Source of the DNA: an uncultured beta proteobacterium
GTDB taxonomy: Bacteria > Pseudomonadota > Gammaproteobacteria > Burkholderiales > Casimicrobiaceae
Reading direction: 5' to 3'
DNA length: 64,000 bases
NCBI GenBank assembly: GCA_963718025.1
Contig: CAVQXW010000004.1
Coordinates: 249,523-313,522 of the forward strand
Of this stretch, positions 9,490 to 27,163 are shown one piece after another; the stretch's first letter is position 1, and every line of letters begins with the position of its first letter. The notes under the pieces are model-generated. The model was not told the DNA's origin and ran no database searches. It was given only the letters and a program-made list of their open reading frames with translations. The position numbers and the translations under genes are program-made.

Positions 9490-9873
9490 ATGACCCGCAG
9501 CATTCTTGACGAATCGCATATCCACCCGGCTATCAGGGTGGCCATCGCCGATCACCATGCGGACATCGTCCGCGAAGTGCAGGCCGCGATTGCGAGCAAC
9601 GACGTGGTTGTCGTTGGAATGAAACAAAACCCATTTCCGAAGAAGGCGCGTAAGGCGCTCCACGCGGCAGGCGTGCCGTACAAGTATCTCGAATATGGCA
9701 GCTACATCGACGGTTGGCGGCGGCGCAATGCCTTGAAGATGTGGACCGGCTGGCCGTCCTTTCCCATGATATTCGTCAAGGGCGTGCTGATCGGTGGAGC
9801 CACCGATTTGGAGCGCCTCTTTGATAGCGGCGAGTTGAAGCAACTGCTGGCCGGGAAATCCGCGTCATCATGA
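9490..9873 (+). CDS. glutaredoxin-fold protein without cysteine
   Basis: WTGWPSFPMIFVKGVLIGGATDL matches the Grx cis-Pro and GG motifs. Confidence 0.8.
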   Translation: MTRSILDESHIHPAIRVAIADHHADIVREVQAAIASNDVVVVGMKQNPFPKKARKALHAAGVPYKYLEYGSYIDGWRRRNALKMWTGWPSFPMIFVKGVLIGGATDLERLFDSGELKQLLAGKSASS

Positions 9874-10082
9874 ACACTGTCGTGCTCGAGTCCGCGCTGT
9901 CCTGCCCGCACTGCGGCTTCGCCGCGCGGGAGACGATGCCCACGGATACCTGCCACTTCTTCGACGAGTACCGCAACTGCGAGACGCTGCTACGCCCGAA
10001 GCCAGGCGACTGTTGCGTGTTGTGCTCGTACGGCTGGGTGAAGTGCCCGTCGATTCAGGAGCAAGGCGGATGCTGCGGTTGA
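9870..10082 (+). CDS. GDCCVxC domain-containing small Cys-rich protein
   Basis: CPHCG...LLRPKPGDCCVLCSYG..KCP; 4-nt ATGA overlap with the upstream gene. Confidence 0.85.
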   Translation: MNTVVLESALSCPHCGFAARETMPTDTCHFFDEYRNCETLLRPKPGDCCVLCSYGWVKCPSIQEQGGCCG

Positions 10083-10285
10083 CTGGCGCCGTCGTGACTA
10101 TCGCTGTTTCGCTGGCCGCGACGGGATGTACATGGCAACAAACCGCCTATTTCGTCGGCCAACAATGGCAGCGCAATGCCTGCAACCGGCTTCCCGATCA
10201 ATTCGAACGTGAGCGCTGCTTCGGTAACGCGAACATGTCCTACGACGAGTATCGACGTCGGGTCGAAGGAGCCAAGAAGGAGTAG
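10070..10285 (+). CDS. small putative lipoprotein
   Basis: hydrophobic leader with AATGC lipobox; two further Cys; overlaps the upstream stop. Confidence 0.6.
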   Translation: MLRLTGAVVTIAVSLAATGCTWQQTAYFVGQQWQRNACNRLPDQFERERCFGNANMSYDEYRRRVEGAKKE

Positions 10286-12290: not shown

Positions 12291-12776
12291 GCAATGATCT
12301 TCAAACATTTGTAGCCTTCACCGCCCTCGTATGGCGGCGCGCAGCGTGACCTCGCCGTAGCCCGGCGGAGGTTTGTGCCGCCCAAAACACGCTCGTCGGA
12401 ATCTTTGCATGATCTGTCGAGCACATCTGGCCCGAGGTCGATTCCGGCAAAGGCGGCGTCCGCGGCGGTTGGGAGCGACAGGAGAAGCCGCCGGTTGCCG
12501 TAATCCTGTGGAGGGCAGATTCTTGTTCGCTACACCGATCGAAACCCGTCGAACCGTTTGGCATCTTCGCCTGCAGTTCGGAACGGCCGGTGCAATAATC
12601 GCCGCCGGCTGATCTCGTTTGATCGGGCAATTCAGCCAGAACCCGCCGGGCGTGTTCGGGAGCGCGCGCGGCCCTTCCGGAGACGGGGCAAGGGGGAACC
12701 AAGCGGTGCGACGAGAGGGCGGGAACCGTCCGCACACGCAGCACGTTCCGGCGATAGTGCGAACAAGAGCCGGGCG

Positions 12777-13475
12777 ATGCCGCTCATAGCGTTCAAGCCG
12801 ACGAAGGCTCGACTCATCATCGAGCAGAGCAAGGACAGCGTGCTGGTGATGAAAGTGGTCTCCGCCGCGGACGAGCGCCTTGTGCTCTCGACCGGGGAAT
12901 CGCTCTCCACGCTGCACGGCGTGCTGCGCATCCGCGAGTACAAGCCGCACGTCGAGCGGCTCGATCGCAAGGTGTCGGGCACGCTCGTCTTCATCCTGGA
13001 CCCGGGCCGGCCGACGGCAAGCGCCGCGGCCAAATACCAGATCAACATCGCGATGGGGTCGAAGAAGTTCGACTCCCTGCTGCAGATCGCGCTCGCCGGG
13101 CGAATGCCGACCAAGTTCTTCATCGATGCCGGCGAAGGCACCGGTCCCTTCGGAGGTCGCGGTATCACCTATGTGACGCGGCAAAGCGGCCGGGTGAAGC
13201 ACTGGAACAACCGCGCGCACCCGGTGCTGTCGATCGGCAATTTCTCGATGATCCTTCCGATCGACGTGGCGGAGCCCCCGGAGCCCGCGCTCGCGGAGTC
13301 GGATGAGCGTGCGCCGCCCGAGGCGCTTGCCACCAGCGCACAGGTCGCAGAGCTCGCCGACGAGCTGCTTGCGTTCCAAGCGGAGACGCATTACACGCTG
13401 AAGGCGATCGTCACGATCATCGGCGTCATCTTGCTGCTTGCCGTCGTTTTCAACGTTGTGCTGCTGTATCGCTGA
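12777..13475 (+). CDS. hypothetical protein with C-terminal membrane anchor
   Basis: codon usage typical of the genome; C-terminal IVTIIGVILLLAVVFNVVLLY helix. Confidence 0.7.
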   Translation: MPLIAFKPTKARLIIEQSKDSVLVMKVVSAADERLVLSTGESLSTLHGVLRIREYKPHVERLDRKVSGTLVFILDPGRPTASAAAKYQINIAMGSKKFDSLLQIALAGRMPTKFFIDAGEGTGPFGGRGITYVTRQSGRVKHWNNRAHPVLSIGNFSMILPIDVAEPPEPALAESDERAPPEALATSAQVAELADELLAFQAETHYTLKAIVTIIGVILLLAVVFNVVLLYR

Positions 13476-13647: not shown

Positions 13648-14325
13648 ATGCCCCGCACGACGCTGCATCCAGGAACGATCGACGAGCCGGTCCTCGCGGG
13701 AGCAGCGGCATGGGACGGTCTCGAGCAGGAGGCGCTGCGCGACGCGCTCGTCGAAGGTCTGGGCACCACGCATCTCGACCTTCCTCCCGTCACTGCCGAG
13801 TTCATGGAATCGCTCGGTTCGCTCGTTCGCGCCTTTGCGGCCGGGACGATGACGTTGCTGCGCGAGCGCGCCGAAACGAAAAGCACCCTGCATGGCGACA
13901 TGACGCTGATCGACGCGGGCGCGATCAACCCGCTCAAGGCCGCGTGGGACGTCGATATCGCACTCCAGCACCTGTTCGCGCCGCAGCGCAGCGACATGCA
14001 GCAGCCCGTGCCGGCGTTCACCGAGGCGTACGAGGACCTGCGGGCGCACGACCGCGACCTCTGCGCCGGAATCCATGCAGCGCTCGCCGGATTGCTCGCC
14101 CGTTTCGACCCGGCCGCGCTCGAGCAGCGGCTTGGCAGCGAAAGCATGCTGGACAGCCTCGTGCCGGGAAGTCGCAAGGCGCGAAGTTGGGATTCGTTCG
14201 TCGAGCTTTATGCGGATGTCCGCGCCGAGGCCGAGCGCGATTTCTGGGCGGTGTTCGCGCGCGAGATTGGCGGGCAGGCGCCAGCGGAAGCGAGCGCCGA
14301 CGCCGCGGCCGGCGCGCGCGACTGA
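13648..14325 (+). CDS. TagH/FHA-protein C-terminal domain protein, no FHA domain
   Basis: INPLK...DLRAHD..LCAGIHAALAGLLARFDPAALEQRL...KARSWDSFVELY, paralogous to the C-terminus of 16966-18195. Confidence 0.8.
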   Translation: MPRTTLHPGTIDEPVLAGAAAWDGLEQEALRDALVEGLGTTHLDLPPVTAEFMESLGSLVRAFAAGTMTLLRERAETKSTLHGDMTLIDAGAINPLKAAWDVDIALQHLFAPQRSDMQQPVPAFTEAYEDLRAHDRDLCAGIHAALAGLLARFDPAALEQRLGSESMLDSLVPGSRKARSWDSFVELYADVRAEAERDFWAVFAREIGGQAPAEASADAAAGARD

Positions 14326-14365: not shown

Positions 14366-16666
14366 TCAATCCAGGCGATCACCCGATTCGCGCACGACGC
14401 CGACGGTCGTGCGCAGCTGCGCGGACACGTGGTGTAGCAGGTTCTGCAGCAGACGGGCGTACAGATCGAGATTCGCACGCCGGATCGCCTCGAGGCTTTT
14501 GCGGGAAAGGCTGTAGACGACCGCCTCTTCCTCGACCATTGCCGTCACCGCGCGCGGCGATCCTTCGAGTGCCGCCGATTCGCCGAAGATCACGCCCGGC
14601 GCCAGCGTGACGATGCGCCGCGTATTGGCGTGGCCCGGCGCCATCTGCTCGACGGCGATGCTGATTGCGCCGCGTGCGAGCAGATAGAGCCGGTCGCCCG
14701 CGTCGCCTTCGCGAAACAGCACCGCGCGCGCGGGGTAGTGCTGGCGATCGAGATACGGCTTGATGAAGGCAAGGTCGGCGTCCGGAAGCCCGCGCGCGAG
14801 CGCGAAATCGGACAACGGGATCTCGGCGCGCAGGTCCCGCGGCAGAAGCTCGGTCAACAGCGCTCGCTCGGCCCACTCGAGCGCGCGATCGACATCGTCG
14901 AACCAGTGCGTGTGATGGCGCTCGGTGAACAGGCCGGCGCCGGTCAGCGCTGCGCCAAGCCGGCTCGTCGCGTTGATGTGGGCAAGCAACAGACCGATGC
15001 CGCGCTCGTGCAGCCGGCGTTCGAGCCGCTCGATCGTCAGCGCACCGGACGCATCGAGCATCGTCACTCGATGGAGGTCGAGCACGAGGAAGCGCGTTCC
15101 GTCGGGCACGGCATCGGCCTCCTCGGCGAGCCGTTCCGCGGTCCCAAAGAAGATCGCGCCATCGAGCTCGAGAATCGCAGTGCGCCCGCCGTGGTTGCGC
15201 AGGAGGCGTGACTGCTCGGGCGGATAGACGCGGCGCGAGGCACGCGTTACGCCTGTCGTCGTCGACCGTACGAGGGAGCGGTTCATCACGGCAATGAAGA
15301 GCCCCATCGAGAGGACGAGGCCGACGAGCACCGCGGGCACCGGGCCGAAGATCACGGTGACGGCGGCGACGAAGGCGACCACCAGCAGATTTCGCTGCAA
15401 TTCGCGGTCGTGCAGGTGCCGCAGCGCGCGCTGCAGCATGTCGCGCACCCAGCGGTCGAAGAGCCCGATCGCGATCGTGATGTTGACGCCCGCGAAGACG
15501 GCGAGCGGTATCGTCGCCAGCAGTGGCCCGCCGTACAGCAGAAGGAGCAGCAGCACCGCGGACGTCGTGAGCGTGGTGATGGTCCTGCGTCCGCCGCGCC
15601 GGCGCGATGCCATCGCCTGCGCCGACGAGTAGGCGACGGGCACACCGCCGAACAGCGCCGAAGCGATATTGCCGAACCCCAGCGTCACGATCAGGCGGTT
15701 CGGCTGGTGACCTGCATCGAGCGGACCCTCTTCCTCGCCGACTGCGGTCAGAAGGCTGTCGAGCGCGCCTACCACGGCGAGCACGGCTGCGCTGAACGCG
15801 ACCTCGTAGCCGTGCTGCAGCAGCAATTCCAGACCACCGGCGCGAAGGAGCGGCAGCAGCGCATCGGGCCATGGCAACGTGCCGGAAAGCGGCGGCAGCG
15901 TCGGGCCCGTACGGGCATCGGGCACGAGCCCGACGATCAGCATTGCGATGGCGGTTCCGCCGACGATGCCGATGAGCCGGGACGGCGCCTTCGACCAGCG
16001 CAGCGAAACCGCGAGCACGATGACGATCGTCGCGGCGCCGACGACGAGTGGCCAACCGGGCAGGCCACTGTGGGCGCCCTGGTCCAACGCCATGTGCGGA
16101 CCGGCGACGCCTTGGTGCAGGCCCAGAAGCTCGGGCAGCTCGTAGAGCGCGAGCGACACCGCGAGCCCGGTCATGAAGCCCGCGACGACGGGGTAGGGCA
16201 CGTAGCGGACGACGCTGCCGAGCCGCAGCACGCCGAACACGATCTGCAGCACGCCGGAGAGCAGAAGGCAGGCGGCCGCCAGGAAGACGATCTCGGGTAC
16301 ACCGCGCGCGGGCAGCGATTGCAGCGAGGGATCCGCGGCGAGCCGCGTCACGAAAGACGCGAAGACCAGCACGGTCGAGGCGCGCGGCACCTCGTTCGGC
16401 ATGAGCGCGCTGCCAAGGATGGCGGCGGTGAGGTTGCCGAAGATCGCCGCGGCGAACGCCGCACGCACGCCGGAATCGACCGCCGCGTCGCCCAGAGGAC
16501 CGAATGCGATCAGGCCGAGCGTCAACATGTACGCGAGCATCCAGATCGCGTTCATCGTTCCGGCCACGATTTCGCGAGCGGCACGCCGGACGCGCTCGAG
16601 CGGCGATACCGTCTCGCTGGCCGCAGTGTCCGGCGGGTGGTGGCTCTCGGGGGCCTGCGAGCTCAT
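14366..16666 (-). CDS. SulP family anion transporter with STAS and cNMP-binding domains
   Basis: VPYPVVAGFMTG, GNIASALFGGVP, ELDGAIFFGTA (STAS), LFREGDAGDRLYLL...GVIFGE (cNMP). Confidence 0.9.
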   Translation of the reverse strand: MSSQAPESHHPPDTAASETVSPLERVRRAAREIVAGTMNAIWMLAYMLTLGLIAFGPLGDAAVDSGVRAAFAAAIFGNLTAAILGSALMPNEVPRASTVLVFASFVTRLAADPSLQSLPARGVPEIVFLAAACLLLSGVLQIVFGVLRLGSVVRYVPYPVVAGFMTGLAVSLALYELPELLGLHQGVAGPHMALDQGAHSGLPGWPLVVGAATIVIVLAVSLRWSKAPSRLIGIVGGTAIAMLIVGLVPDARTGPTLPPLSGTLPWPDALLPLLRAGGLELLLQHGYEVAFSAAVLAVVGALDSLLTAVGEEEGPLDAGHQPNRLIVTLGFGNIASALFGGVPVAYSSAQAMASRRRGGRRTITTLTTSAVLLLLLLYGGPLLATIPLAVFAGVNITIAIGLFDRWVRDMLQRALRHLHDRELQRNLLVVAFVAAVTVIFGPVPAVLVGLVLSMGLFIAVMNRSLVRSTTTGVTRASRRVYPPEQSRLLRNHGGRTAILELDGAIFFGTAERLAEEADAVPDGTRFLVLDLHRVTMLDASGALTIERLERRLHERGIGLLLAHINATSRLGAALTGAGLFTERHHTHWFDDVDRALEWAERALLTELLPRDLRAEIPLSDFALARGLPDADLAFIKPYLDRQHYPARAVLFREGDAGDRLYLLARGAISIAVEQMAPGHANTRRIVTLAPGVIFGESAALEGSPRAVTAMVEEEAVVYSLSRKSLEAIRRANLDLYARLLQNLLHHVSAQLRTTVGVVRESGDRLD

Positions 16667-16965
16667 AGCGGGCGCGAACGTCCGAATCGTGTGCGATGCG
16701 GCGAGTCTCCGTGCCGCGGCCGCTGCGGCGCCGTGGAGTCTACTCCAGCGCTGCGCCGATAATGGCGGCGGCCGTCCGGGGCGTACGTCTGTGCTCCAAT
16801 CCTCGTTCCGTGTGGCGCGGGCGGCCAACGGAAAAGTCGGCTTGACGGAGCTCGGGCGACGCTCCATGCTTCCCTGCAGGCAGCGACCGCCCTTTGCCGC
16901 GGCGCGGCGTCCGGATCCTTCGCGCGCCGGCGTCGATGCGCCCTTCCTGACCAGCCCTTTCGCTC

Positions 16966-18195
16966 ATGTCCTCGCGCAAGATCACGCTGCGGGTCGTTTC
17001 GTGTGCCGGCCAGCCGCTCGAACCGCCGATGACGATCGACGTCGGCGAGGAGGGCGCGACGATCGGTCGGGCGCCCGGGAATGCGCTCGTGCTGCCCGAT
17101 CCCGATCGCGTGATCTCCCGACAGCATGCGGTGATCGGTTTTCGCGACGGCATGTTCGTGTTGTGCGACCACGGAAGTGTGGTGGCCGTACAGCACAACG
17201 GACGGATCGTCGGCAACGGTCGCGAGTCGCCGCTCGCCGATGGCGACGAGATGCGGATCGGTCCGTACGTTGTTAAGGTCGAGGCGGAGAACGACGACGA
17301 AACGCTGCCGCTGCACGGCCTCGTTGCAGGCATGCCGGAAGCGCCACCCGTAGCCGACACACTGCTTTCGTGGCAGACGCCGGGCGCGGAGCGGCGACCT
17401 GACGGTATCACCACGGTGATCGTTCCGCAGACAGCAGAAGCTCTCGCTGCCCGTGAAGCTGCCGAGGTCATCGTGCCGCCGCTTGCGGCAGCTACGCCGG
17501 CGGCGCCCGGGGCCCCTTCCCTCGAAGCCGGCGTCACGCTTCCGCTTCGCACCGGCAGTCTCCCGCCGGCGCCGCTCGCCTCGCGGCAAGAGCTGCTGCG
17601 AGCGTTCCTTGGGGGCGCCGGCATGCCGCAGCTGGACATCGCAGGCGGACTCACGCCCGAGTTCATGCGCGATGTTGGGCAGATCCTGAGCGAGGCGGTG
17701 CGCGGCATCCTGGACCTGCTGCACGCGCGCGCCGTGACCAAGCGCGAGGTGCGTGCCGAGGGCACGATCATCGTCGCGGCCGACAACAATCCGCTCAAGT
17801 TCTCGCCCGACGTCGATGCCGCGCTCGTCGCGTTGCTCGCACCGCGCGGCCGCGGCTTCATGGCGCCACGCAACGCGGTCGAAGATGCATTCGCGGGCTT
17901 GTCCTCGCACCAGCAGGGCTTCGTCGCCGGCATGCGTGCGGTGCTTGCCGTCGTGCTGGCGCGGTTCGATCCCGCGACGTTGGAGCAGCGTCTCGCGCAG
18001 CCGAGCGTGGCCGATTCGCTCGTCCCGCTGCATCGCAAGGCTCGTCTGTGGGACCTGTTTGCCGAACTCTATGTCGAACTGTCCCGGGAATCGGCGGCCG
18101 ACTTCCAGGCGCTGTTCGGCCACGAGTTCCTGCGCGCATACCAGGCGCAGGTTGCGCTTGCGCGCACGCGCGACAACGCGGATGGCGCAGGTTAG
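16966..18195 (+). CDS. tagH: FHA-domain protein, T6SS-associated TagH/Fha family
   Basis: IGRAPGN..LPDPDRVISRQHA (FHA) and NNPLKFS...HQQGFVAGMRA C-terminal domain. Confidence 0.88.
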   Translation: MSSRKITLRVVSCAGQPLEPPMTIDVGEEGATIGRAPGNALVLPDPDRVISRQHAVIGFRDGMFVLCDHGSVVAVQHNGRIVGNGRESPLADGDEMRIGPYVVKVEAENDDETLPLHGLVAGMPEAPPVADTLLSWQTPGAERRPDGITTVIVPQTAEALAAREAAEVIVPPLAAATPAAPGAPSLEAGVTLPLRTGSLPPAPLASRQELLRAFLGGAGMPQLDIAGGLTPEFMRDVGQILSEAVRGILDLLHARAVTKREVRAEGTIIVAADNNPLKFSPDVDAALVALLAPRGRGFMAPRNAVEDAFAGLSSHQQGFVAGMRAVLAVVLARFDPATLEQRLAQPSVADSLVPLHRKARLWDLFAELYVELSRESAADFQALFGHEFLRAYQAQVALARTRDNADGAG

Positions 18196-18208
18196 CGCGG
18201 CCGGCACG

Positions 18209-18997
18209 ATGCTGATCGAAGTCGCGACGCTATCGAACATCGGAGGCCGCGAGACCAACGAGGACGCATCGGGCGTATGGTCGCCTCCCAATGCGCTCTT
18301 CTGCGTGGTCTCCGACGGCGCGGGCGGGCAAGGCGGGGGGGACGTCGCCTCGAAGCTCGCCGTCACCGCGGCGCTGGCCGCGCTGCAGCGATCCCCGCAG
18401 TGCACGCGCGACACCGTGCACGGCGCGTTGGCCGCGGCCAACCAGGCGGTGACGGCAGGACAGCAGGGGGAGCTTCGATTGCGCAACATGCGGGCAACAG
18501 CCGTCGTCTTCTGCTGCGACGCGTTGCACCGCCGTGCCGCGTGGGGGCACATCGGCGATTCGCGGCTATACTATTTTGCCGGTCGCCGGATCGCCCGGCA
18601 GACGCGCGACCACAGCGTTGTCCAAAACATGGTGGACGCAGGCTATATCGCGGCGGACCAGCTGCGGGCAGCGCCGCAGAGGAGCCGCCTGTTCGCGGCG
18701 CTTGGGGAACCTGCCAATTTCGCGCCGGTTGCCGAGGAGATCGCGATCGAGGGCGGCGACGTGTTCCTGCTCTGTACCGATGGTGTCTGGGAGCAGGTGA
18801 CGGAGCAGGACATGGAGCAGGCGCTCGCGCACGCGTCGTCGGCCGCGGACTGGCTTGCGCGCATCGAGGCGCGCGTGCTGGAGGTACAGCGGGAGCGGCA
18901 GGACAATTTCTCGGCGGTGGCGATCTGGTGCAGCGAGCGGTCGGCCGGTCCGGCCGGTGCAACGGGATCGCAGATGATGGGAACGCAATGGACGTGA
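18209..18997 (+). CDS. PP2C-family Ser/Thr phosphatase (PppA/Stp1-like)
   Basis: RETNED, VSDGAGG, HIGDSRLY, LCTDGVW, DNFS motifs. Confidence 0.92.
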   Translation: MLIEVATLSNIGGRETNEDASGVWSPPNALFCVVSDGAGGQGGGDVASKLAVTAALAALQRSPQCTRDTVHGALAAANQAVTAGQQGELRLRNMRATAVVFCCDALHRRAAWGHIGDSRLYYFAGRRIARQTRDHSVVQNMVDAGYIAADQLRAAPQRSRLFAALGEPANFAPVAEEIAIEGGDVFLLCTDGVWEQVTEQDMEQALAHASSAADWLARIEARVLEVQRERQDNFSAVAIWCSERSAGPAGATGSQMMGTQWT

Positions 18998-19929
18998 TGG
19001 GAACGATGGCAAGGACCGCAGCGCTGCTCGCCTTGGCGGGTGCATTGGGCGCGGGTTGCGCATCGTCTCCGCCAGCGGCCAGCGGACAGGCCGGCGGCAC
19101 CGCCACTTCGCAGGCACCGCCACCAACGCCGGCACCGGCGCCGGTTGCGGCACCGCCCGCGCCTCCCACCGAGGCGCAGATCCGCGAGGACAGGGCGCAG
19201 GCGCAGAAACTTGCGCTCGAGGCCGTCGACCAGCTGCAAAACGGCGACGAGCCCGCCGCCCGCGCCACGCTCGACCGGGTACAGGCACTGGATCCCAACA
19301 ACGAGCTGGCGCGCAAGCTTGCCGAGCAGATCCGTGCCGACCCGGTGAAAGAGCTCGGCGCGGCCAACTTCCGCTACACGGTGCAGCCCGACGACACGCT
19401 GTCGAAGCTCGCGCAGCGGTTCCTCGGCGACCGGCTGCGCTTCTATATCCTCGCGCGCTACAACGACATCGCCAATCCCAGCCGGCTCCAGGCCGGCCAG
19501 TTGATCAAGATTCCGGGCAAGGAGCCGCCGCCCGCGCCTGCCGGCACGGCCCGTGCCGGTCAGCGCCCCATCGAGCCGGTCGAGACGCTGACGAGGCCCC
19601 CGACCGAAGCGGAGCGCCTCTACCGGCAAGGTGTTGCGCAGAAGAATGCGGGCAATCTGGACGCGGCCCTTGCGGCATTCAGCGACGCCGCGCGGCGCGA
19701 GCCCGGCAACTCCGAGTACGCGAAACAGGCCGAGGCAGCGCGCAACGAGCTCGTGCGCCGCTACGACCGTGACGCGACGCAGGCGTTCCAGCGGCAGAAC
19801 CTGGACCTTGCGATCAAGAGCTGGGATCGCGTGCTCGCGCTCGATCCCGAGAACCAGAAGGCAAAGCTCGAGCGCGCCCGCGCCGAGGACTTGAAGAAGC
19901 GCCTGCAGGACAAGTTCGGCACCAAGTAG
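18997..19929 (+). CDS. lipoprotein with LysM domain and TPR-like helices
   Basis: LGAGC lipobox; YTVQPDDTLSKLAQRF...LQAGQLIKIP LysM; TGATG coupling to the PP2C gene. Confidence 0.85.
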   Translation: MGTMARTAALLALAGALGAGCASSPPAASGQAGGTATSQAPPPTPAPAPVAAPPAPPTEAQIREDRAQAQKLALEAVDQLQNGDEPAARATLDRVQALDPNNELARKLAEQIRADPVKELGAANFRYTVQPDDTLSKLAQRFLGDRLRFYILARYNDIANPSRLQAGQLIKIPGKEPPPAPAGTARAGQRPIEPVETLTRPPTEAERLYRQGVAQKNAGNLDAALAAFSDAARREPGNSEYAKQAEAARNELVRRYDRDATQAFQRQNLDLAIKSWDRVLALDPENQKAKLERARAEDLKKRLQDKFGTK

Positions 19930-19965
19930 CGCGATCCGGCGCTCCTCGTTGCGTCGGCGGATCCG

Positions 19966-20946
19966 TCAGGGGCGTTGCATTGCGCCGCCGGCGCCCCGCG
20001 CGTCTTTGCCGGCCGGCGTGCCACGCACCGCCGCCAGGCGGCTTGCCGCACGGGTGTTCTTCGGATCGATGCGCAGGCTCGTTTCCCAATAGCCGATTGC
20101 AAGCACCATGTCCGTGTCGGCCACCCGCACACCCTTCTCGTAATACTCGTTGCCGAGCGCGCGGCGCAGTGTTTCCGCCCGGGCGCTCCATTCCGGCATC
20201 TTCTCGCCGCGCAGCGACAACGCCTGGTCGTAGAGGCTCAACGCGTCCTCGCGCGCGCCCTGTGCTTCGGCCTCGCGCGCGCGCTCGTAGACCACGGCGC
20301 CGATCTGCGCACGCGCCGCACGGTCGTTGGGGTGCGCTTCCACGTAGCGACGCAGTTCGCGCAGGCCGCCGCTTCGATCCCCGGCGCGGAACATCTCGAT
20401 GCGCTGCTCGAGATCGTAGCCGTCGGACGGTTCCGCAGGGCGGACCGAGGCCGACGTCGCGGAATCCATTCCATTGTCGGTGCGTGCACGCGCGGAGCGA
20501 TCGGCCTGCGTACGGCTCACTCGCTGCCGCTCGATCTCGCGCAGCACCTTTGCCGCCTCCGCGTTGCCGGGATCGGCGGCGAGGACGCGCAGCATCGCCG
20601 CGGTCGCGCGCTCCATGTCGCCGGTACGAAGCGCCGCGTTGCCGGCCGCAAGCTGCTCGGCGGTGACGCGGCCGATTTCCGCCCGGGTCGCGGCGAGCGC
20701 GTCCCGAAACGACCGCTCCTCGGGGTCGAGCAGCGTCAGCGCTTGCCATTGGCTCGCGGCGCGCGAAAGGTCGCCGCTCTTGGCGTACTGCTCGGCCAGT
20801 CCGCGATGCCGCGCGATGCTGCGAGCGAGCGCCGGATCGACGGGGGCGGACGACGCAGCGACAGGCGCGCCGGAACGCGTCGGCGCCTCGGCACACGCGG
20901 CGACCAGCGCCGCAAGAAGCAGCGAAAGCACATGATGGCGACTCAT
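19966..20946 (-). CDS. TPR-like lipoprotein
   Basis: LVAAC lipobox; repeated helices ending in LDP/ADP/IDP turns; ATGA overlap with the deacetylase gene. Confidence 0.75.
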   Translation of the reverse strand: MSRHHVLSLLLAALVAACAEAPTRSGAPVAASSAPVDPALARSIARHRGLAEQYAKSGDLSRAASQWQALTLLDPEERSFRDALAATRAEIGRVTAEQLAAGNAALRTGDMERATAAMLRVLAADPGNAEAAKVLREIERQRVSRTQADRSARARTDNGMDSATSASVRPAEPSDGYDLEQRIEMFRAGDRSGGLRELRRYVEAHPNDRAARAQIGAVVYERAREAEAQGAREDALSLYDQALSLRGEKMPEWSARAETLRRALGNEYYEKGVRVADTDMVLAIGYWETSLRIDPKNTRAASRLAAVRGTPAGKDARGAGGAMQRP

Positions 20947-21995
20947 CGCGATGCGGCGCGCGACGTGCGGGGCGTGAACACCTGGAGCCGCGACTTGAAC
21001 GTTTCCATGTCGTCGGTGCCGAACACCATCGAGCGGCGCAGCATGTACGGATAGGCGAAGAAGCCGTTGCCTCCCGGCGTCACCGTGGCGCCGATCTGCA
21101 GGCCGAGCCTCTGCAGTTCCGCCACGACGGCGTCGTTCACGTCGCCGTACGGAAACGCGTAGCTGACGGGTTTGACGCCGAGGCGTTCGGCGATCAGCGC
21201 GGTGGGACGCTCGATCTCGAGACGCATGCGGTCGCGATACTGCGCGGGTGTCTCGTTCGCCATGCGCAGCGCCAGGTTGCCGTGCGTCTTCGAGTGTGGC
21301 TGGATCTCGATCAGCCCCGAGCGCATCATCTCCTGCATCTGCGTCCATGTCATCGCATCGCTCGCGCCGACGAAATCGCTGTAGAGGAACACCGTGGCCG
21401 GGAAGCCGTACTTGCGCAGCACGGGGTAGGCGATCTCGTAGGTCGACTTGTAGCCGTCGTCGATCGTGAGCACGACGGATTTGGGCGGCAGCGCCTCCCG
21501 GCCCTCGAGAAAGCCGACGAGGCGCGACAGCGCTATCACGTGGTAGCCGTTACGCGCCAGGTACTCCATCTGCGCCTCGAAATCGGCGCGGGTGACCACC
21601 AGCCTGCGTTTGGGTGAACCGAAGCGGTGATAGCAGAGGATCGGAATCGTCTGGAACCCCTGTGCGGTGACGCCGAGCGGGCTCGGGCCCCTGAGCGGGA
21701 TCGCGATCAACTCGCCGGCCGCGATCTTCTCCGTGCCATTGAACTCGGTGATCCACCAGCCCTTGCCGGCATCGCCCAGATGGCGCGCAGCGAGCGCGGC
21801 GGCGTCGTCGCCGGGTTGCGCCGCGACGATCGCGAATTCGTTGTCGCGGGCGACGACCGGCCCCCGCGGTGCCGTCGAGACGACGGGTGCGGACACATCC
21901 GCCTGCCGCGGCGGAGGCGCGCTTGCGCACGCGGCAAGCAGCAGAGCCAGCGCGCACGCGGCGGCGGCGGACCGGGGATCAGCGGGCTTTCGCAT
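20943..21995 (-). CDS. lipoprotein polysaccharide deacetylase (CE4/NodB) with LysM-like N-terminus
   Basis: LLAAC lipobox; ILCYH, LTIDDG, HSKTH, FAYPYG motifs. Confidence 0.9.
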   Translation of the reverse strand: MRKPADPRSAAAACALALLLAACASAPPPRQADVSAPVVSTAPRGPVVARDNEFAIVAAQPGDDAAALAARHLGDAGKGWWITEFNGTEKIAAGELIAIPLRGPSPLGVTAQGFQTIPILCYHRFGSPKRRLVVTRADFEAQMEYLARNGYHVIALSRLVGFLEGREALPPKSVVLTIDDGYKSTYEIAYPVLRKYGFPATVFLYSDFVGASDAMTWTQMQEMMRSGLIEIQPHSKTHGNLALRMANETPAQYRDRMRLEIERPTALIAERLGVKPVSYAFPYGDVNDAVVAELQRLGLQIGATVTPGGNGFFAYPYMLRRSMVFGTDDMETFKSRLQVFTPRTSRAASR

Positions 21996-23586
21996 TCTTC
22001 GTGCGCGGCGCTTCGTGGCGCGCCTGCAGCGCTGCGGCAGTCTCGTCGAAGGCCGCATAGAGCTCGCCGAATTCGTCGCTGCGGGTGTCGGTGATGCGGT
22101 ACTCGTAGCGGCCGCCGGCGAGTTCCGCGAGGGAATTGCGCAGCACACGCATCGGACCTGCGAGGCGCTGGGCGAGCAGGTAGCTGCCGACCGCGACCGC
22201 GATGCTCGTCACGAGGATCAGCAGGCCGAGCAGCGCAAGCGTGAGGTTCGCCACCGCTGCGAGGGGAGCCTGGAAGATGCCGAGGTGCACCTGGCCGATC
22301 TCGTTGCCCTGGAAAAGGATGGGGGCGCTGAAGTCGAGCACGTCGCGACCGTCGGCAAGCTTGTGCGTCTGCACGGCAACGCCCAGCTCGCGCGTGGACA
22401 CCGGCCTCGCGGCGAGCGGCTTGTAGCGCTGCCCGATCTGTGCAGGTTCGTTCGATCCGCGGATTACCCCGCCGTCGTCCAGAACGACCAGGTAACTGAA
22501 ATCCTGCCGGTCCACCGTTTCCTGCACGAGCACGTCGGTCGCCGCCCAGTCCTCGGCGAGCATCGGCACGGCATTTTGCGACGCCATGAACTTGACGAGC
22601 GATCCGCCATAGCCCGTCACCTGGTCCATCATCGCCTGGTACTGACGGTTGTAGAGGAACAGTGCGGTGATGCTCATCGTCACGGCGACCAGTGCGGCCA
22701 TCAGCACCGCCCAGCGGACGCCGAGCGGGATGCGGCGCTTGCGATCGGCTTCCACGCCGGTTTCCGCGAGTTCGAGCGCCACCGCTTCGAGCGCCTCGGC
22801 CATCTCGGCGCCGGACTGAAAGCGCTTGTCGGGCTGCTTGCGCAGCGCCCGGTCGATCACACGCCGCAGCGAGAGCGGCAAGTCCGGCCGCAGCTTGTCG
22901 AGCGGCGTGGGCTCGGTCTTCGTGATCTTGTAGGCGACGGTGATGAGTGTCTCGCCGTCGAAAGGCAGCGTATTCGAAAGGAGCTGGTAAAGCACGACCC
23001 CTGCCGAAAACAGGTCGGAACGCGCGTCGGTCTTTTCGCCCAGAACCTGCTCCGGCGACATGTAGTGCGGCGTGCCCAGCACGTTCCCCACCTGCGTGGC
23101 CTGCGTAGCCTCGCTGTCCTCGATGCGGCAGATGCCGAAGTCGGCGACCTTGATCGTCGTCGTATTCTTCACCAGCATCACGTTGCCCGGCTTCACGTCG
23201 CGATGGACGATGCCCCTCCGGTGCGCATAGTCGAGCGCGCGCGCGAGCTGAATGCCGATCTGCACGACCTCGGAAACGGAGAGCAGGCGCTTTTCGCGCA
23301 GCAACATCGAGAGCGTCGGCCCCTCGACGTACTCCATGGCGATGTAGGGATGGCCGTTCTGGTCGCCGACGTCGAAGACGGTGACGATGTTCGGGTGCGA
23401 CAGGATGCCGGCACCCTTCGCTTCGCGCAGGAAGCGGACGCGATATTCCCGGTCCTCGCGCAGCTGCGTCTTGAGAAGCTTGATCGCGACCGTGCGGTCG
23501 ATGTCCGGGTCGTGCGCCCTGTAGACCCGGGCCATCGCGCCTTCGCCGATGGACTCCTGGATTTCGTAGCGACCTACACGTTCCAT
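21979..23586 (-). CDS. Hanks-type Ser/Thr kinase with two TM helices, periplasmic domain and C-terminal HAMP
   Basis: IGEGAMARVY, VAIK, HRDVKPGN, DFG, GTPHYMSPE; TM segments; DEFGELYAAFD HAMP motif. Confidence 0.93.
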   Translation of the reverse strand: MERVGRYEIQESIGEGAMARVYRAHDPDIDRTVAIKLLKTQLREDREYRVRFLREAKGAGILSHPNIVTVFDVGDQNGHPYIAMEYVEGPTLSMLLREKRLLSVSEVVQIGIQLARALDYAHRRGIVHRDVKPGNVMLVKNTTTIKVADFGICRIEDSEATQATQVGNVLGTPHYMSPEQVLGEKTDARSDLFSAGVVLYQLLSNTLPFDGETLITVAYKITKTEPTPLDKLRPDLPLSLRRVIDRALRKQPDKRFQSGAEMAEALEAVALELAETGVEADRKRRIPLGVRWAVLMAALVAVTMSITALFLYNRQYQAMMDQVTGYGGSLVKFMASQNAVPMLAEDWAATDVLVQETVDRQDFSYLVVLDDGGVIRGSNEPAQIGQRYKPLAARPVSTRELGVAVQTHKLADGRDVLDFSAPILFQGNEIGQVHLGIFQAPLAAVANLTLALLGLLILVTSIAVAVGSYLLAQRLAGPMRVLRNSLAELAGGRYEYRITDTRSDEFGELYAAFDETAAALQARHEAPRTKNAKAR

Positions 23587-23932
23587 CGGGCCGGTCCTCG
23601 CATGCCGCGTGCACTGTCCCTATCGGGCAGCGGCAACGGCGGCGAGTATGCCAGAAAGACCGCGACGCGCGAGCGGGCAGGGGCTCGCGCCGCGGTTTTG
23701 GGCGCAGCCACACGGCAAACAGGCGGCGAAGACCCTCAGGTCGGGCCGGCCTGCGAGGCGACTCTTGACGCCGGTCAAAGTCCTCGTACTGCCGCGTACT
23801 ATGGTGCATAAAGGATCTCTGGAAAAGCCGCAGGCGATGACCTGCGGCCCATGCAGAGGCTTCCCCGGGGCGGCGCAGCACGCGGGCAGGCCGCCGCAGG
23901 CGACGCCGCTCGCCACGAGCAGGAGGTCGTTG

Positions 23933-24280
23933 ATGCAAGTTCCGCTGCAGGTCACGCTGCGCAATCTTCCGCATTCCGACGCACTCGAGCAGCGCATCCG
24001 CCGCAAGGTGGACAAGCTCGAGGCGCTGTCGCATCGCATCACGAGTTTCGTGGTGACTGTCGAGTCGCGTCACCGCCACCAGCAGCAGGGCCGCGAGTTC
24101 GCGGTCAGCTTGGACGTGCGCCTTCCCGGTCGCGAAATCGTCGTGAACCGCACGCACGACGAGGACGTCTACGTGGCGTTGCGCAATGCGTTCGACACGT
24201 TACGGCGGCAACTGGACGAGCTTGCGCGCATCCAGCGCGGCGAGGTGAAACCCCGCAAGACGGCGGGCGGTACGCCATGA
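23933..24280 (+). CDS. HPF/RaiA family ribosome hibernation protein
   Basis: MQVPLQVTLRNLPHSDALE...DVYVALRNAFDTLRRQL. Confidence 0.88.
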   Translation: MQVPLQVTLRNLPHSDALEQRIRRKVDKLEALSHRITSFVVTVESRHRHQQQGREFAVSLDVRLPGREIVVNRTHDEDVYVALRNAFDTLRRQLDELARIQRGEVKPRKTAGGTP

Positions 24281-24927
24281 TCTTCCGCGACCGCGCGGAC
24301 GCGGCGGAACGGCTTTCGGCTGCGCTTTTGCACCTCAAGGGTACCAATCCGCTGATCCTCGCGATTCCGCGCGGCGCGGTTCCGATGGGGCGCGTGCTGG
24401 CCGAGCGCCTTGGTGGCGAGCTCGATGTCGTTCTGGTGCGCAAGCTCGGGGCGCCGGGCTCGCCCGAGTTCGCCGTCGGCGCCGTGGACGAAACGGGCTG
24501 GACGTATGTCGCGCCGCATGCCGCGCAGGCGGGCGCCGATGCGGGCTATCTCGCGCGCGAGCGCGACGCGCAACTTGCGGTGCTGCGCACGCGACGCGCC
24601 AGTTACACGCCGGCGCGACCGCCGCTCGATCCCGCGGGCCGAGTGGCGATCGTCATCGACGACGGATTGGCCACCGGTGCGACGATGATCGCGGCCCTGC
24701 ACGCCGTGCGCGCGCGTAACCCGTCGCGCCTGATCTGCGCCGTCCCGGTTGCAGCACCGGATAGCGTCGAGACGGTCCGGCCGTACGCTGACGAGGTCGT
24801 GTGCCTCGCGGCACCGGCGAATTTCTACGCAGTCGGCGCGCACTATATGCGCTTCAACCAGGTGAGCGACGACGAGGTGATCGCGACGTTGGCAGAGGTC
24901 GGGGCCGCGCGCATCGCGGGCGCGTAG
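24277..24927 (+). CDS. phosphoribosyltransferase family protein
   Basis: FRDRADA, AIPRGAVP, IVIDDGLATGATM PRPP loop. Confidence 0.92.
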   Translation: MIFRDRADAAERLSAALLHLKGTNPLILAIPRGAVPMGRVLAERLGGELDVVLVRKLGAPGSPEFAVGAVDETGWTYVAPHAAQAGADAGYLARERDAQLAVLRTRRASYTPARPPLDPAGRVAIVIDDGLATGATMIAALHAVRARNPSRLICAVPVAAPDSVETVRPYADEVVCLAAPANFYAVGAHYMRFNQVSDDEVIATLAEVGAARIAGA

Positions 24928-24936
24928 GCGGCGCGT

Positions 24937-25584
24937 TCAGCGGTGTAGGTAACCGAGCTCACGCAATCCGGCGACGATTCGCTCGGCCATCGCGCGGTAG
25001 CCCGATTCGTTCAGATGGACGGTGTCGGCGCGCTGCGACCGTTGCGCAAGAAGCGAAGCGAGTCCGGCGTCGAGGAGCGGGATCTGCAGCGACTTCGCCG
25101 CCTCGGCATAAAGAGGGGCATCGTTGAGACCGTTGCCTCCGAGCCGGGGCACCGGCATCAGCACGATCGGCGTATTGGCGGCGCGTGCGTCCTGCGTACA
25201 GGACGCGAGTGCCTCGCGGATACCTTGCTCGGGCAGCCGCCGCAGGAAGTCGTTGCCGCCCAGCAGCACGAGAACGAGCTGCGGACGGTGCACGGCGAGC
25301 AGATCCGCGAGCCGGCCGCAGCCCTGCGCGGCGGTTTCGCCCGGGACGCCGGCATTGATGACCTGCCAGCCGGTGAGCGCTCCGAGGACCGCCGGGTAGC
25401 TCGTCTGCGGCGTCGCGCCCGTGCCATACGTGAGACTGTCGCCGAGCGCGATGACGGTGGCGCCGGCGGCGAGCGGCGCATGCGGTGGGGACTTGCTGCA
25501 GGCTGCAAGCAGCACGATCGCCGCGACGCATGCGAGCGCGCGAAGCGACGGTGCGCAGCAATCGATCGCACGGGTCCAGGCCAT
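24937..25584 (-). CDS. GDSL/SGNH arylesterase lipoprotein
   Basis: LGDSLTYG, NAGVPGET, LGGND, DTVHLN blocks. Confidence 0.9.
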   Translation of the reverse strand: MAWTRAIDCCAPSLRALACVAAIVLLAACSKSPPHAPLAAGATVIALGDSLTYGTGATPQTSYPAVLGALTGWQVINAGVPGETAAQGCGRLADLLAVHRPQLVLVLLGGNDFLRRLPEQGIREALASCTQDARAANTPIVLMPVPRLGGNGLNDAPLYAEAAKSLQIPLLDAGLASLLAQRSQRADTVHLNESGYRAMAERIVAGLRELGYLHR

Positions 25585-25639
25585 CGGGTCATGTTACCGT
25601 AAGCGTGCGGGGTGGCCGGTACCCACGCGACCTTGACGG

Positions 25640-27163
25640 ATGTTGGCACAATCCTCCTTCCCCACGCGGCTCGTCGTCGACAGCAACCTGCTTGCGCTTG
25701 CCGAGCGCGCGTTCGGCCGCGCTGCCGGCGCGGATCCGATCGACGGGAACGCGGTGCGGATCCTGCTCGACGCCGAGCAGAACTTCCAGGCCTGGCTCGG
25801 GGCGATCAGCAACGCGCGACGCACGATCCTCTTCGAGAGCTACATCATTGCCGACGATGCGGTCGGCCGCGAATTCGTTGGCGCGTTGGTGCGCAAGGCG
25901 AAGGAGGGGGTACGCGTCTTTGCCGTGTTCGACTGGCTCGGATCGCTGTGGTCGGGGGCGCTCTGGCCGTTGCTGCGCGATGCCGGAGTCGAGTTGCGCA
26001 TCTTCAATCCGATGCACTTCACGAGTCCGCTTGGCTGGCTGTCGCGCGATCACCGCAAGACGATCGCGATCGACGGGGAAGTCGGTTTCGTCAGCGGGCT
26101 TTGCGTCAGCGGCAAGTGGCTCGGCGATCCCGAACGGCAGCTGGAACCCTGGCGTGACACGGGCGTGGAAATCCGAGGTCCCGCCGTTGGCGCACTGGAG
26201 CGCGCGTTCGCGCAGGTGTGGTCGGCGAGCGGCCATACGCCGTTTCCCCACGAGCTTCTCCTGCAACCGGCGGATGCCCGGCGCGTGGGCGACACGCGGT
26301 TGCGGGTCGTCGCGGGAATTCCCAACGCAACCGGCACGTTCCGCCTCGACCTTGTCATCGCTTCGATGGCACACCGGTCGCTTTGGCTCACCGATGCCTA
26401 CTTCGTCGGCACGGCGCCTTACGTGCAGGCACTGGCTGCCGCCGCGCGCGATGGGGTGGACGTTCGCCTGCTGGTGCCGGGCGCGAGCGACATCCCGGGA
26501 TTGTCGCCGATGTCGCGCGCCGGCTACCGGCCGTTGCTCGAGGCCGGCGTCCGCGTGTTCGAATGGAACGGCACGATGCTGCACGCGAAGACCGCGGTGG
26601 CGGACGGCGCATGGTCGCGCATCGGTTCCACCAATCTCAACATCGCAAGTTGGCTGCAGAACTACGAGCTCGACGTCGCGATCGAGGACGAAGCGATCGG
26701 CGCCGCGATGGCCGAGCAATACGAGCGCGACCTCGAGCATGCGACCGAGATCGTGCTGACCGAGCGCAACCGCGTCCGGCGCGCGCAGCCGCGAACTGGG
26801 CCGCCGGTGCGCCGCGCGAGCGCGGGAAGCGCGGGCCGCGCGGCAGCGGGCGCGTTGAGCGTGGGCAGCGTACTCGGCGCGGCGCTGACCGATCGTCGCG
26901 TGCTCGCTCCAGCCGAGGCCGGGCTGGTCGCTCGCATGGCCGTTACCGCCATCGTGATCGCTATCGTCGCTGCCTTCTGGCCGCGGCTCGTTGCATGGCC
27001 GCTGGCGGTAGTCGGCGTCTGGATCGGTCTTGCATGGATCGGCAAGAGCATCGACCTGCGGCGCGAAGCCAGGCGTCGCGCCGATGAAGGTGGCGCGGAA
27101 CCCGAGGCGAGCGGATGCGGCGCCAACGCGCCATCGCCGACGCGACCTCGCGGCCCCGACTAG
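25640..27163 (+). CDS. phospholipase D family cardiolipin synthase (ClsB-like)
   Basis: two HKD motifs: DHRKTIAID and LHAKTAVAD; C-terminal TM helices. Confidence 0.88.

What the first reader, a model, noticed from the sequence alone, without database searches (positions are those of the whole stretch)
16966..23586. Kinase/phosphatase/FHA switch without T6SS, linked to cell-wall-type lipoproteins
Established: kinase, PP2C and FHA (PpkA/PppA/Fha) form the threonine-phosphorylation switch of type VI secretion. Seen: two convergent, translationally coupled operons, tagH-PP2C-LysM/TPR lipoprotein and kinase-CE4 deacetylase lipoprotein-TPR lipoprotein. No tss, hcp or vgrG genes are in the window. 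Inference: a stand-alone phospho-signalling system controlling peptidoglycan or exopolysaccharide deacetylation, possibly uncharacterised.
Basis: partly seen in the sequence, partly recalled or inferred. Interest (0 to 1): 0.75.

Follow-up and report, generated by a model that had tools for sequence, protein, structure and literature searches.

The report
T6SS phospho-switch surviving without T6SS
This bacterium has no type VI secretion machine, yet it keeps, intact and under selection, a membrane kinase, three cell-wall-type lipoproteins and the kinase/phosphatase/FHA switch that sit inside type VI gene clusters in its relatives; here they are joined to an anion transporter, so a weapon's control circuit seems to have become a stand-alone envelope sensor.

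Summary
The six genes are real, coupled and convergent as described, and all catalytic motifs are intact. The genome (99% complete) has none of 14 T6SS genes tested.

The block is not one unit:
- **Invariant core (4 genes):** Cache-HAMP Hanks kinase, LysM-like CE4 deacetylase lipoprotein and TPR lipoprotein, convergent on a LysM-TPR lipoprotein.
- **Swappable FHA output, variant I (here):** short TagH, PP2C, a SulP-STAS-cNMP transporter and an FHA-less TagH paralogue. This extends the locus to 13648.
- **Swappable FHA output, variant II:** a nucleotide cyclase-FHA fusion.

In a 121-genome family sample, 29 genomes carry the kinase: 14 are variant I, 13 variant II, and only one also has TssC.

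In five T6SS-positive betaproteobacteria the same core lies inside the T6SS cluster, next to TagF-TssM and a long TagH. So this is a T6SS-type threonine-phosphorylation module that has been orphaned and rewired, not an unrelated system. dN/dS of 0.12-0.21 between two T6SS-negative genomes argues against a decaying relic.

The exported deacetylase is more likely on the sensing side than a target of the kinase. No description of either form was found in the literature. I class it as a new variant of a known kind, with interest about 0.6.

The parts
13648..14325 (+). TagH2: an FHA-less paralogue of TagH, made of the T6SS_FHA_C domain only (about 225 aa)
   Evidence: Pfam PF20232, E 6e-43. It is the second PF20232 hit in the genome. 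It is conserved beside SulP in 11 variant-I loci. Orthologues in L019 and L097 keep a degenerate FHA domain. The AF2 model is all-alpha with pLDDT 81.5, and Foldseek finds no PDB neighbour.
14366..16867 (-). SulP-family anion transporter with a STAS domain and a C-terminal cyclic-nucleotide-binding domain (833 aa)
   Evidence: Pfam Sulfate_transp, STAS and cNMP_binding. It always lies between TagH and TagH2 in variant-I loci, at 52-57% identity. It is absent from the T6SS-embedded loci.
16966..18195 (+). Short TagH (409 aa): FHA domain, disordered linker with a conserved SW...TTVIVP motif (T149/T150), and an all-alpha T6SS_FHA_C domain
   Evidence: TIGR03354 scores 251 bits against a cut-off of 120; Pfam FHA plus PF20232. 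AF2: FHA pLDDT 97, linker 112-196 disordered, C domain helical. It falls in the short-TagH clade, separated from long T6SS TagH with SH-like support 100. The linker motif is conserved in both clades.
18182..18997 (+). PP2C Ser/Thr phosphatase (PppA/TagG analogue), overlapping the end of the tagH gene
   Evidence: Pfam PP2C_2, E 1e-14; Stp1-like 147 bits, below its cut-off. All motifs are present and the overlap with TagH is 14 nt.
18988..19929 (+). LysM-TPR lipoprotein, part of the invariant 4-gene core
   Evidence: Pfam LysM, E 1e-10, plus TPR. Lipobox LGAG|C. It is present, convergent on the kinase operon, in every locus with enough flank.
19966..20946 (-). TPR lipoprotein, part of the invariant 4-gene core
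   Evidence: Pfam TPR_2 and TPR_14. Lipobox VAA|C. Its start shares ATGA with the CE4 stop. Conserved in the loci.
20943..21995 (-). Lipoprotein with a LysM-like N-terminal region and a CE4 polysaccharide/peptidoglycan deacetylase domain, part of the invariant 4-gene core
   Evidence: Pfam Polysacc_deac_1, E 8e-25. The nearest solved relatives are BpsB, IcaB and the PgaB N-domain, E 1e-18 to 4e-22. YHR, TIDDG, HSKTH, FPYG and the lipobox Cys are conserved in 120 orthologues. Pfam detects LysM in some orthologues.
21979..23586 (-). Receptor Hanks Ser/Thr kinase: N-terminal kinase, TM1 (about 286-310), periplasmic sCache_3_2, TM2 (about 440-470), C-terminal HAMP
   Evidence: Pfam Pkinase 1e-51, sCache_3_2 4e-9, HAMP 1e-10. 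Hydropathy and motifs were checked. Full-length orthologues share 62-77% identity in uncultured Betaproteobacteria.

Best explanation
This locus is an orphaned and rewired type VI secretion 'threonine phosphorylation pathway'.

Shown:
- An invariant four-gene core is conserved as a unit. It consists of a Cache-HAMP receptor Hanks kinase, a LysM-like CE4 deacetylase lipoprotein, a TPR lipoprotein and a LysM-TPR lipoprotein.
- In T6SS-positive betaproteobacteria this core lies inside the T6SS cluster, beside TagF-TssM, a long TagH and a PP2C.
- In this genome and in dozens of related species there is no T6SS. The core persists there under purifying selection.
- Next to the core sits one of two mutually exclusive FHA-domain outputs. 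Variant I (here) is a short TagH, PP2C, a SulP-STAS-cNMP transporter and a TagH paralogue that has lost its FHA domain. Variant II is a class III nucleotide cyclase fused to FHA.

Inferred mechanism:
1. The three exported, peptidoglycan-binding-type lipoproteins work with the kinase's periplasmic Cache domain to report cell-wall or envelope state.
2. HAMP and the TM helices relay this to the N-terminal kinase, which autophosphorylates (a PknB-like ATQATQ activation loop).
3. The FHA domain of TagH docks on phosphothreonine, and TagH is probably phosphorylated in its linker at the conserved TTVIVP motif.
4. The helical T6SS_FHA_C domain, which engages the secretion machine in T6SS organisms, here most likely acts on the neighbouring SulP transporter together with TagH2.
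5. PP2C resets the switch.
For: Gene content and intact motifs.

No T6SS in this genome:
- VipB HMM negative.
- 13 core genes plus TagF negative by tblastn with relatives' proteins that were themselves verified by NCBIfam or Pfam.

Core conserved in all loci with sufficient flank.

Core embedded in T6SS clusters in five genomes:
- L098.
- G007, i.e. L017 plus L085.
- G243, i.e. L101 and L102.
- G309 (L103) and G274 (L104), with the order TssJKLM-TagF-kinase.

Family sample of 121 genomes:
- 29 are kinase-positive and 24 are TssC-positive; they overlap in one genome (two-sided Fisher p 0.014, not phylogenetically corrected).
- 14 carry TagH plus TagH2 at the locus.
- 13 instead carry cyclase-FHA at the locus.

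Other support:
- SulP and TagH2 occur only in orphan loci.
- Short TagH forms its own clade against long T6SS TagH.
- In the kinase tree the deep branches are T6SS-linked and the crown clade is mostly T6SS-negative.
- dN/dS for a pair of T6SS-negative genomes: TagH 0.21, PP2C 0.15, TagH2 0.17, LysM-TPR 0.12 (T6SS status).
- A complete 4.58 Mb genome shows the same eight-gene order.
Against: - No experiment bears on any step, and no RNA run holds the locus.
- The input role of the lipoproteins and the SulP/TagH2 output rest only on topology and conserved adjacency.
- The fold of T6SS_FHA_C has no solved neighbour, and the Cache ligand cannot be inferred.
- The kinase tree is rooted on a long-branch paralogue, so 'T6SS-linked is ancestral' is parsimony, not proof. 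The module could have spread to T6SS-free genomes by transfer.
- dS is compressed by the extreme GC3 bias, so dN/dS values for distant pairs are unreliable.
- Most carrier genomes are MAGs. Absence of TssC in any single MAG is weak evidence, although many are over 95% complete.
- Two T6SS clusters (L098, G007) also carry a second kinase, so the Cache-HAMP kinase is not necessarily the T6SS gate there.
Confidence: 0.6

Rival explanations
1. One reading: a stand-alone kinase/phosphatase/FHA switch whose output is control of peptidoglycan or exopolysaccharide deacetylation by the CE4 lipoprotein.
For: The kinase and CE4 genes overlap by 17 nt and always travel together. The CE4 is catalytically intact and strongly conserved. 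LysM-type domains point to GlcNAc polymers.
Against: The CE4, TPR and LysM-TPR proteins have lipoprotein signal peptides and act outside the cytoplasm, so the cytoplasmic kinase, PP2C and FHA cannot touch them. The FHA partner is swappable (TagH or cyclase-FHA) and sits next to cytoplasmic or inner-membrane partners, which points to a cytoplasmic output. The genome has no PNAG synthase.
Confidence: 0.15
2. A functionless relic: leftover regulatory genes of a lost T6SS that have not yet decayed.
For: The core is embedded in T6SS clusters in relatives, and T6SS is absent here.
Against: All eight ORFs and every catalytic motif are intact. The module is kept in at least 28 T6SS-negative species of three genera. 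dN/dS is 0.12-0.21 between two T6SS-negative genomes. New conserved partners, SulP-cNMP with TagH2 or cyclase-FHA, were gained only in orphan loci.
Confidence: 0.07
3. An accessory of a PNAG-like exopolysaccharide pathway: a PgaB/IcaB-type deacetylase with PgaA-like TPR partners, regulated by phosphorylation.
For: The closest solved relatives of the CE4 are the PNAG deacetylases BpsB, IcaB and PgaB (NCBIfam PgaB 128 bits). TPR proteins partner with deacetylases in the Pga and Pel systems (established knowledge).
Against: There is no PgaC/IcaA in the genome (best 70 bits against a cut-off of 422). No glycosyltransferase, porin or c-di-GMP receptor lies in any of about 30 loci. The CE4 scores far below the PgaB and IcaB cut-offs and lacks PgaB's C-terminal domain.
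Confidence: 0.08
4. The switch is T6SS-independent, but its target is another envelope machine or regulator encoded elsewhere, not the adjacent SulP transporter.
For: The partner of T6SS_FHA_C is unknown and its fold has no solved neighbour. In L097 the TagH2-SulP-TagH-PP2C block lies away from any kinase core. V. cholerae TagH affects hlyA expression independently of PpkA (PMC8993066, cited in PMC13584744).
Against: SulP lies between TagH and TagH2 in all 11 variant-I loci examined, across about 45-55% protein divergence. That is hard to explain without a functional link.
Confidence: 0.1

Closest known systems
Threonine phosphorylation pathway of the P. aeruginosa H1-T6SS (TagQRST-PpkA/TagE-PppA/TagG-Fha1/TagH), with the Agrobacterium and Serratia versions
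   Same: It has a membrane Hanks kinase with a periplasmic sensor, a PP2C phosphatase, and an FHA protein carrying the T6SS_FHA_C domain (passes TIGR03354). Outer-membrane or periplasmic accessory lipoproteins sit on the sensing side. In five relatives the core lies beside TagF-TssM inside a T6SS cluster.
   Different: This genome has no T6SS. The kinase sensor is Cache plus a C-terminal HAMP instead of a vWA domain. The accessories are a CE4 deacetylase and LysM/TPR lipoproteins instead of TagQRST. TagH is about 180 residues shorter and forms its own clade. New partners are present (SulP-STAS-cNMP and an FHA-less TagH paralogue). There is no TagF.
Actinobacterial PknB-PstP-FhaA/FhaB cell-wall signalling
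   Same: A receptor Hanks kinase with a peptidoglycan-linked extracellular input, a PP2C, and FHA readers that regulate membrane proteins. The activation loop is PknB-like (ATQATQ). The best NCBIfam hit of the kinase domain is the Stk1/PknB family.
   Different: There are no PASTA domains. The peptidoglycan link is indirect, through separate LysM lipoproteins. The organism is Gram-negative, and the score is below the family cut-off (349 against 450 bits).
PNAG deacetylases PgaB, IcaB and BpsB (CE4)
   Same: These are the closest solved homologues of the CE4 domain. The metal and catalytic motifs are shared, and the protein is lipoprotein-anchored like PgaB.
   Different: The genome has no PgaC/IcaA synthase. 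The protein lacks PgaB's C-terminal domain and has a LysM-like N-terminal region. It scores below the equivalog cut-offs.
FHA-fused nucleotide cyclases such as Bdellovibrio DgcB (GGDEF-FHA)
   Same: Variant II of the module uses a nucleotide cyclase fused to FHA as the phosphothreonine-controlled output. The DgcB FHA domain is among the structural neighbours of the TagH FHA domain.
   Different: The cyclase here is class III (Guanylate_cyc), not GGDEF. In this genome that gene lies elsewhere, beside another kinase.

Membership tests
T6SS threonine phosphorylation pathway (TagE/PpkA, TagG/PppA, TagH/Fha1) | An FHA protein with the T6SS-type C-terminal domain (TIGR03354 / PF20232) | tested here: met
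   TIGR03354 scores 251 bits against a cut-off of 120.25; PF20232 E 5e-55.
T6SS threonine phosphorylation pathway (TagE/PpkA, TagG/PppA, TagH/Fha1) | A transmembrane Hanks kinase and a PP2C phosphatase encoded with TagH | tested here: met
   Pkinase E 1e-51 with two TM segments; PP2C_2 E 1e-14; all catalytic motifs present. The sensor domain differs: Cache plus HAMP, not vWA.
T6SS threonine phosphorylation pathway (TagE/PpkA, TagG/PppA, TagH/Fha1) | Encoded with, and acting on, a T6SS apparatus (TssA-M, Hcp, VgrG, TagF) | tested here: not met
   No TssC by HMM. No TssA, B, C, E, F, G, J, K, L, M, Hcp, VgrG or TagF by tblastn in a 99.25% complete genome. The feature is met in five relatives.
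T6SS threonine phosphorylation pathway (TagE/PpkA, TagG/PppA, TagH/Fha1) | Phosphothreonine-dependent kinase-to-TagH signalling that PP2C reverses | not testable with these tools
   The FHA phosphothreonine-binding residues (R35, S51, H54, N78) and a conserved linker Thr are present. This is sequence evidence only.
PgaB/IcaB/BpsB PNAG N-deacetylases | A CE4 domain with the Asp-His-His metal triad and a catalytic Asp | tested here: met
   TIDDG, HSKTH and FPYG are invariant in 120 orthologues. The nearest solved structures are BpsB, IcaB and PgaB.
PgaB/IcaB/BpsB PNAG N-deacetylases | A score above the equivalog cut-off, and a PgaC/IcaA synthase in the genome | tested here: not met
   PgaB model 128 bits against 322, IcaB 71 against 248. 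The best PgaC/IcaA hit in the genome is 70.5 bits against 422.
PknB/Stk1 PASTA kinases | Extracellular PASTA repeats, and a score above the NF033483 cut-off | tested here: not met
   349 bits against a cut-off of 450. Only the kinase domain (residues 5-272) aligns, and the extracellular part is sCache_3_2.

The most novel reading that the evidence does not exclude
The four-gene core is a peptidoglycan-damage sensor with an enzymatic front end. The LysM-anchored CE4, held by the TPR lipoproteins, would act on exposed or released GlcNAc-containing wall fragments. Its product (acetate or de-N-acetylated muropeptide), or the enzyme's occupancy, would be read by the Cache domain of the kinase. In T6SS organisms this would aim retaliation. 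In T6SS-free lineages the same alarm would be rewired, through TagH/TagH2 or cyclase-FHA, to cyclic-nucleotide-gated anion transport as an envelope-stress response.
Probability: 0.15. Interest if true: 0.8.

Novelty: new variant of a known kind. Interest (0 to 1): 0.6.

Why it matters
1. It identifies an undescribed set of T6SS accessory genes: a Cache-HAMP kinase, a CE4 deacetylase and two TPR/LysM lipoproteins beside TagF-TssM. This set may be a cell-wall-linked input to T6SS firing in betaproteobacteria. It differs from TagQRST and is absent from the 2026 review of T6SS accessory genes.
2. It shows that TagH, PppA and their kinase can persist and diversify without any T6SS. The T6SS_FHA_C domain therefore has a function that is not tied to the secretion machine, and 'TagH' annotations (TIGR03354) are not a marker of T6SS.
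3. The swap between TagH/SulP-cNMP and cyclase-FHA outputs gives a natural experiment on how phosphothreonine signalling is rewired.

Tried and rejected
- **Fold of T6SS_FHA_C.** The AF2 models of TagH and TagH2 are confident. Foldseek against the PDB returns only FHA hits for TagH and nothing significant for the helical domain (best E 1.7, TM below 0.25).
- **Sequence search of solved structures.** TagH gives no hit. The Cache region gives only chance hits, so no ligand can be inferred.
- **Kinase-CE4 'fusion' P0102 (911 aa).** I rejected it as Rosetta-stone evidence. Its locus (L087) has several fragmented genes, and the two ORFs overlap by 17 nt here, so one indel would fuse them.
- **The 305-aa ORF at 12558-13475.** It has no Pfam hit and no homologue in any related locus, so it is not part of the module.
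- **Promoter and terminator scan.** Nothing above shuffled expectation.
- **Literature.** Four full-text searches found no description of this gene set or of orphan TagH modules.
- **Expression.** Only DNA metagenomes from freshwater or sediment samples hold the locus, and no RNA run does.
- **dN/dS for distant pairs.** Unreliable because synonymous differences are compressed under GC3 of 85-95%. I used only the closest pair.

Full report
**1. What is there**

The window has about 67% G+C. Using GC3-guided ORF choice and Pfam/NCBIfam, I read the locus as follows.

| Coordinates | Strand | Gene |
|---|---|---|
| 13648-14325 | + | T6SS_FHA_C-only protein, here called TagH2 |
| 14366-16867 | - | SulP-STAS-cNMP transporter |
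| 16966-18195 | + | TagH (FHA plus T6SS_FHA_C; TIGR03354 251 bits, cut-off 120) |
| 18182-18997 | + | PP2C |
| 18988-19929 | + | LysM-TPR lipoprotein |
| 19966-20946 | - | TPR lipoprotein |
| 20943-21995 | - | CE4 lipoprotein |
| 21979-23586 | - | Hanks kinase (kinase, TM, sCache_3_2, TM, HAMP) |

All catalytic and phosphothreonine-binding motifs are intact.

**2. No T6SS in the genome**

The window lies on contig 4 of a 4.88 Mb, 7-contig assembly that is 99.25% complete. The VipB/TssC HMM finds nothing.

I took a verified T6SS cluster from a relative, G007. NCBIfam identifies VgrG, ClpV, TssG, TssF, TssE, Hcp, TssC, TssB and TssA there. I added TagF, TssM, TssL, TssK and TssJ from L098 and L017. 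tblastn of all of these against the genome returns only ClpB/ClpA-type AAA hits and one OmpA-domain hit.

**3. The block is a core plus swappable outputs**

Full-length kinase orthologues (62-77% identity) are abundant in uncultured Betaproteobacteria, and several carry Casimicrobiaceae labels. tblastn of the window's proteins on 19 orthologous loci shows two things:
- Kinase-CE4-TPR convergent on LysM-TPR is present wherever the flank allows.
- TagH-PP2C, together with SulP-cNMP and TagH2, is present in only about half.

The same eight-gene order occurs in a complete 4.58 Mb genome (L086) and in L096.

Loci without TagH instead carry a roughly 300-aa class III nucleotide cyclase-FHA fusion, usually divergent from the kinase.

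In a sample of 121 genomes of the family, 29 have the kinase orthologue:
- 14 have two PF20232 genes at the locus (variant I).
- 13 have cyclase-FHA at the locus (variant II).
- 1 is unresolved.
- 1, G074, is T6SS-positive.

This genome also has a cyclase-FHA, but elsewhere, beside another kinase (C3, about 213.7-217 kb).

**4. Relation to T6SS**

Within the family, the 29 kinase-positive and 24 TssC-positive genomes overlap in only one. Two-sided Fisher p is 0.014, although the two traits are confounded with genus. Of 16 further carrier genomes, 14 lack TssC.

The decisive result came from TagH homologues. Short TagH (376-448 aa) forms one clade, separated from long TagH (491-656 aa) with SH-like support 100.

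The contexts of long TagH are T6SS clusters, and in L098 the four-gene core sits right there. The order is kinase-CE4-TPR, then LysM-TPR, a second kinase, long TagH, PP2C, TagF, TssM, TssL, TssK and TssJ.

The same embedding is seen in four more genomes:
- G007: VgrG, DUF2169, a PAAR toxin and a CHAP protein; then the core; then long TagH-PP2C; then TagF-TssM.
- G243.
- G309, with TssJKLM-TagF-kinase-CE4-TPR all in one direction.
- G274.

At order level the kinase is rare: 12 of 401 genomes, 8 of 167 genera. Four of the eight carriers outside the family have TssC.

In the kinase tree the deep branches are T6SS-linked, and a well-supported crown clade is mostly T6SS-negative. The cyclase-FHA variant forms one subclade.

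SulP-cNMP, TagH2 and cyclase-FHA never appear in the T6SS-embedded loci.

**5. Relic or working system?**

- For the closest pair of T6SS-negative genomes (L022 in G012 and L096 in G528), NG86 dN/dS is 0.21 for TagH, 0.15 for PP2C, 0.17 for TagH2 and 0.12 for LysM-TPR.
- The CE4 motifs and the lipobox Cys are conserved in 120 orthologues.
- TagH2 keeps a degenerate FHA in some genomes (SRxH replaced) and has lost it here. That is the pattern of a paralogue taking on a new role.

Together with the orphan-specific partners, this argues for a functioning, rewired module.

**6. Mechanism**

Shown: the domain content, the membrane topology, the conserved gene adjacency and the selection described above.

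Inferred:
- The three lipoproteins are exported, so they cannot be substrates of the cytoplasmic kinase. I place them with the Cache domain on the sensing side.
- The CE4 is closest to the PNAG deacetylases BpsB, IcaB and PgaB, but the genome has no PgaC/IcaA. LysM domains favour peptidoglycan-type substrates.
- AF2 gives TagH a confident FHA domain, a disordered linker (112-196) and a helical C domain.
- The linker carries an SW...TTVIVP motif shared by short and long TagH. This is a candidate phospho-acceptor.
- The helical domain has no solved structural neighbour.
- SulP is the proposed output because it lies between TagH and TagH2 in all 11 variant-I loci examined. The cNMP-binding domain on SulP and the cyclase-FHA of variant II suggest a common cyclic-nucleotide theme. 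That link is speculative.

**7. Comparison and novelty**

The module works like the T6SS threonine phosphorylation pathway and shares TagH with it. It fails the defining feature of being tied to a T6SS in this genome. The 2026 review of T6SS accessory genes lists no deacetylase, LysM, TPR or HAMP component, and four literature searches found no description.

Earlier notes of this scan report other stranded T6SS phospho-switches in uncultured Burkholderiales. They fit the pattern, but they are unchecked AI notes and not independent evidence.

Verdict: a new variant of a known kind.

Noticed in passing
G000 contig C3:213736-217056 (locus L108 8731-12063): The genome has a cyclase-FHA fusion, 52-53% identical to the variant-II partner. 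It lies about 1.7 kb from a different Hanks kinase of about 800 aa that is conserved across the whole family. This looks like a second phosphothreonine-to-cNMP pair.
   Followed up: partly
window 12558-13475 (+): A 305-aa ORF with good GC3 and a C-terminal hydrophobic tail, just upstream of TagH2. It has no Pfam hit and no homologue in any related locus.
   Followed up: partly
L087 10001-12736 (protein P0102): A 911-aa kinase-CE4 'fusion'. Its locus has several fragmented genes (TagH and SulP are split), so it is probably a frameshift artefact of a long-read MAG.
   Followed up: partly
L097 6403-11995: The block TagH2 (with degenerate FHA)-SulP-cNMP-TagH-PP2C occurs with no kinase core within 10 kb. 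The output block can therefore stand apart from the core. The genome is not held, so I could not look for the core elsewhere.
   Followed up: partly
L015 14622-15359 and L021 15319-16083: A DUF2652 protein lies just beyond LysM-TPR in two variant-II loci. From memory, DUF2652 belongs to the nucleotide-cyclase clan. I did not check this.
   Followed up: no
L107 (G018:C1:3593000-3612900), about 9570-10094: In some T6SS-positive genomes of the family, a second short T6SS_FHA_C protein sits next to an auxiliary VgrG island, away from the main T6SS cluster.
   Followed up: no
L017 9020-9844 and L085 17082-18482: In the T6SS cluster of G007, a CHAP/cysteine-peptidase-fold protein lies directly upstream of the Cache-HAMP kinase, and a second Ser/Thr kinase of about 466 aa lies beside TssA. 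L098 also has a second kinase, next to a Gly-zipper lipoprotein.
   Followed up: no
window 23924-27163: The neighbours on the kinase side are a ribosome hibernation factor (S30AE), a phosphoribosyltransferase-domain protein, a GDSL lipase and a PLD-family protein. None of them is conserved next to the module in other genomes.
   Followed up: partly
window 16966-23586 in public runs: The locus is found only in DNA metagenomes from freshwater and sediment samples, up to 83% of sampled words. No RNA run holds it.
   Followed up: no
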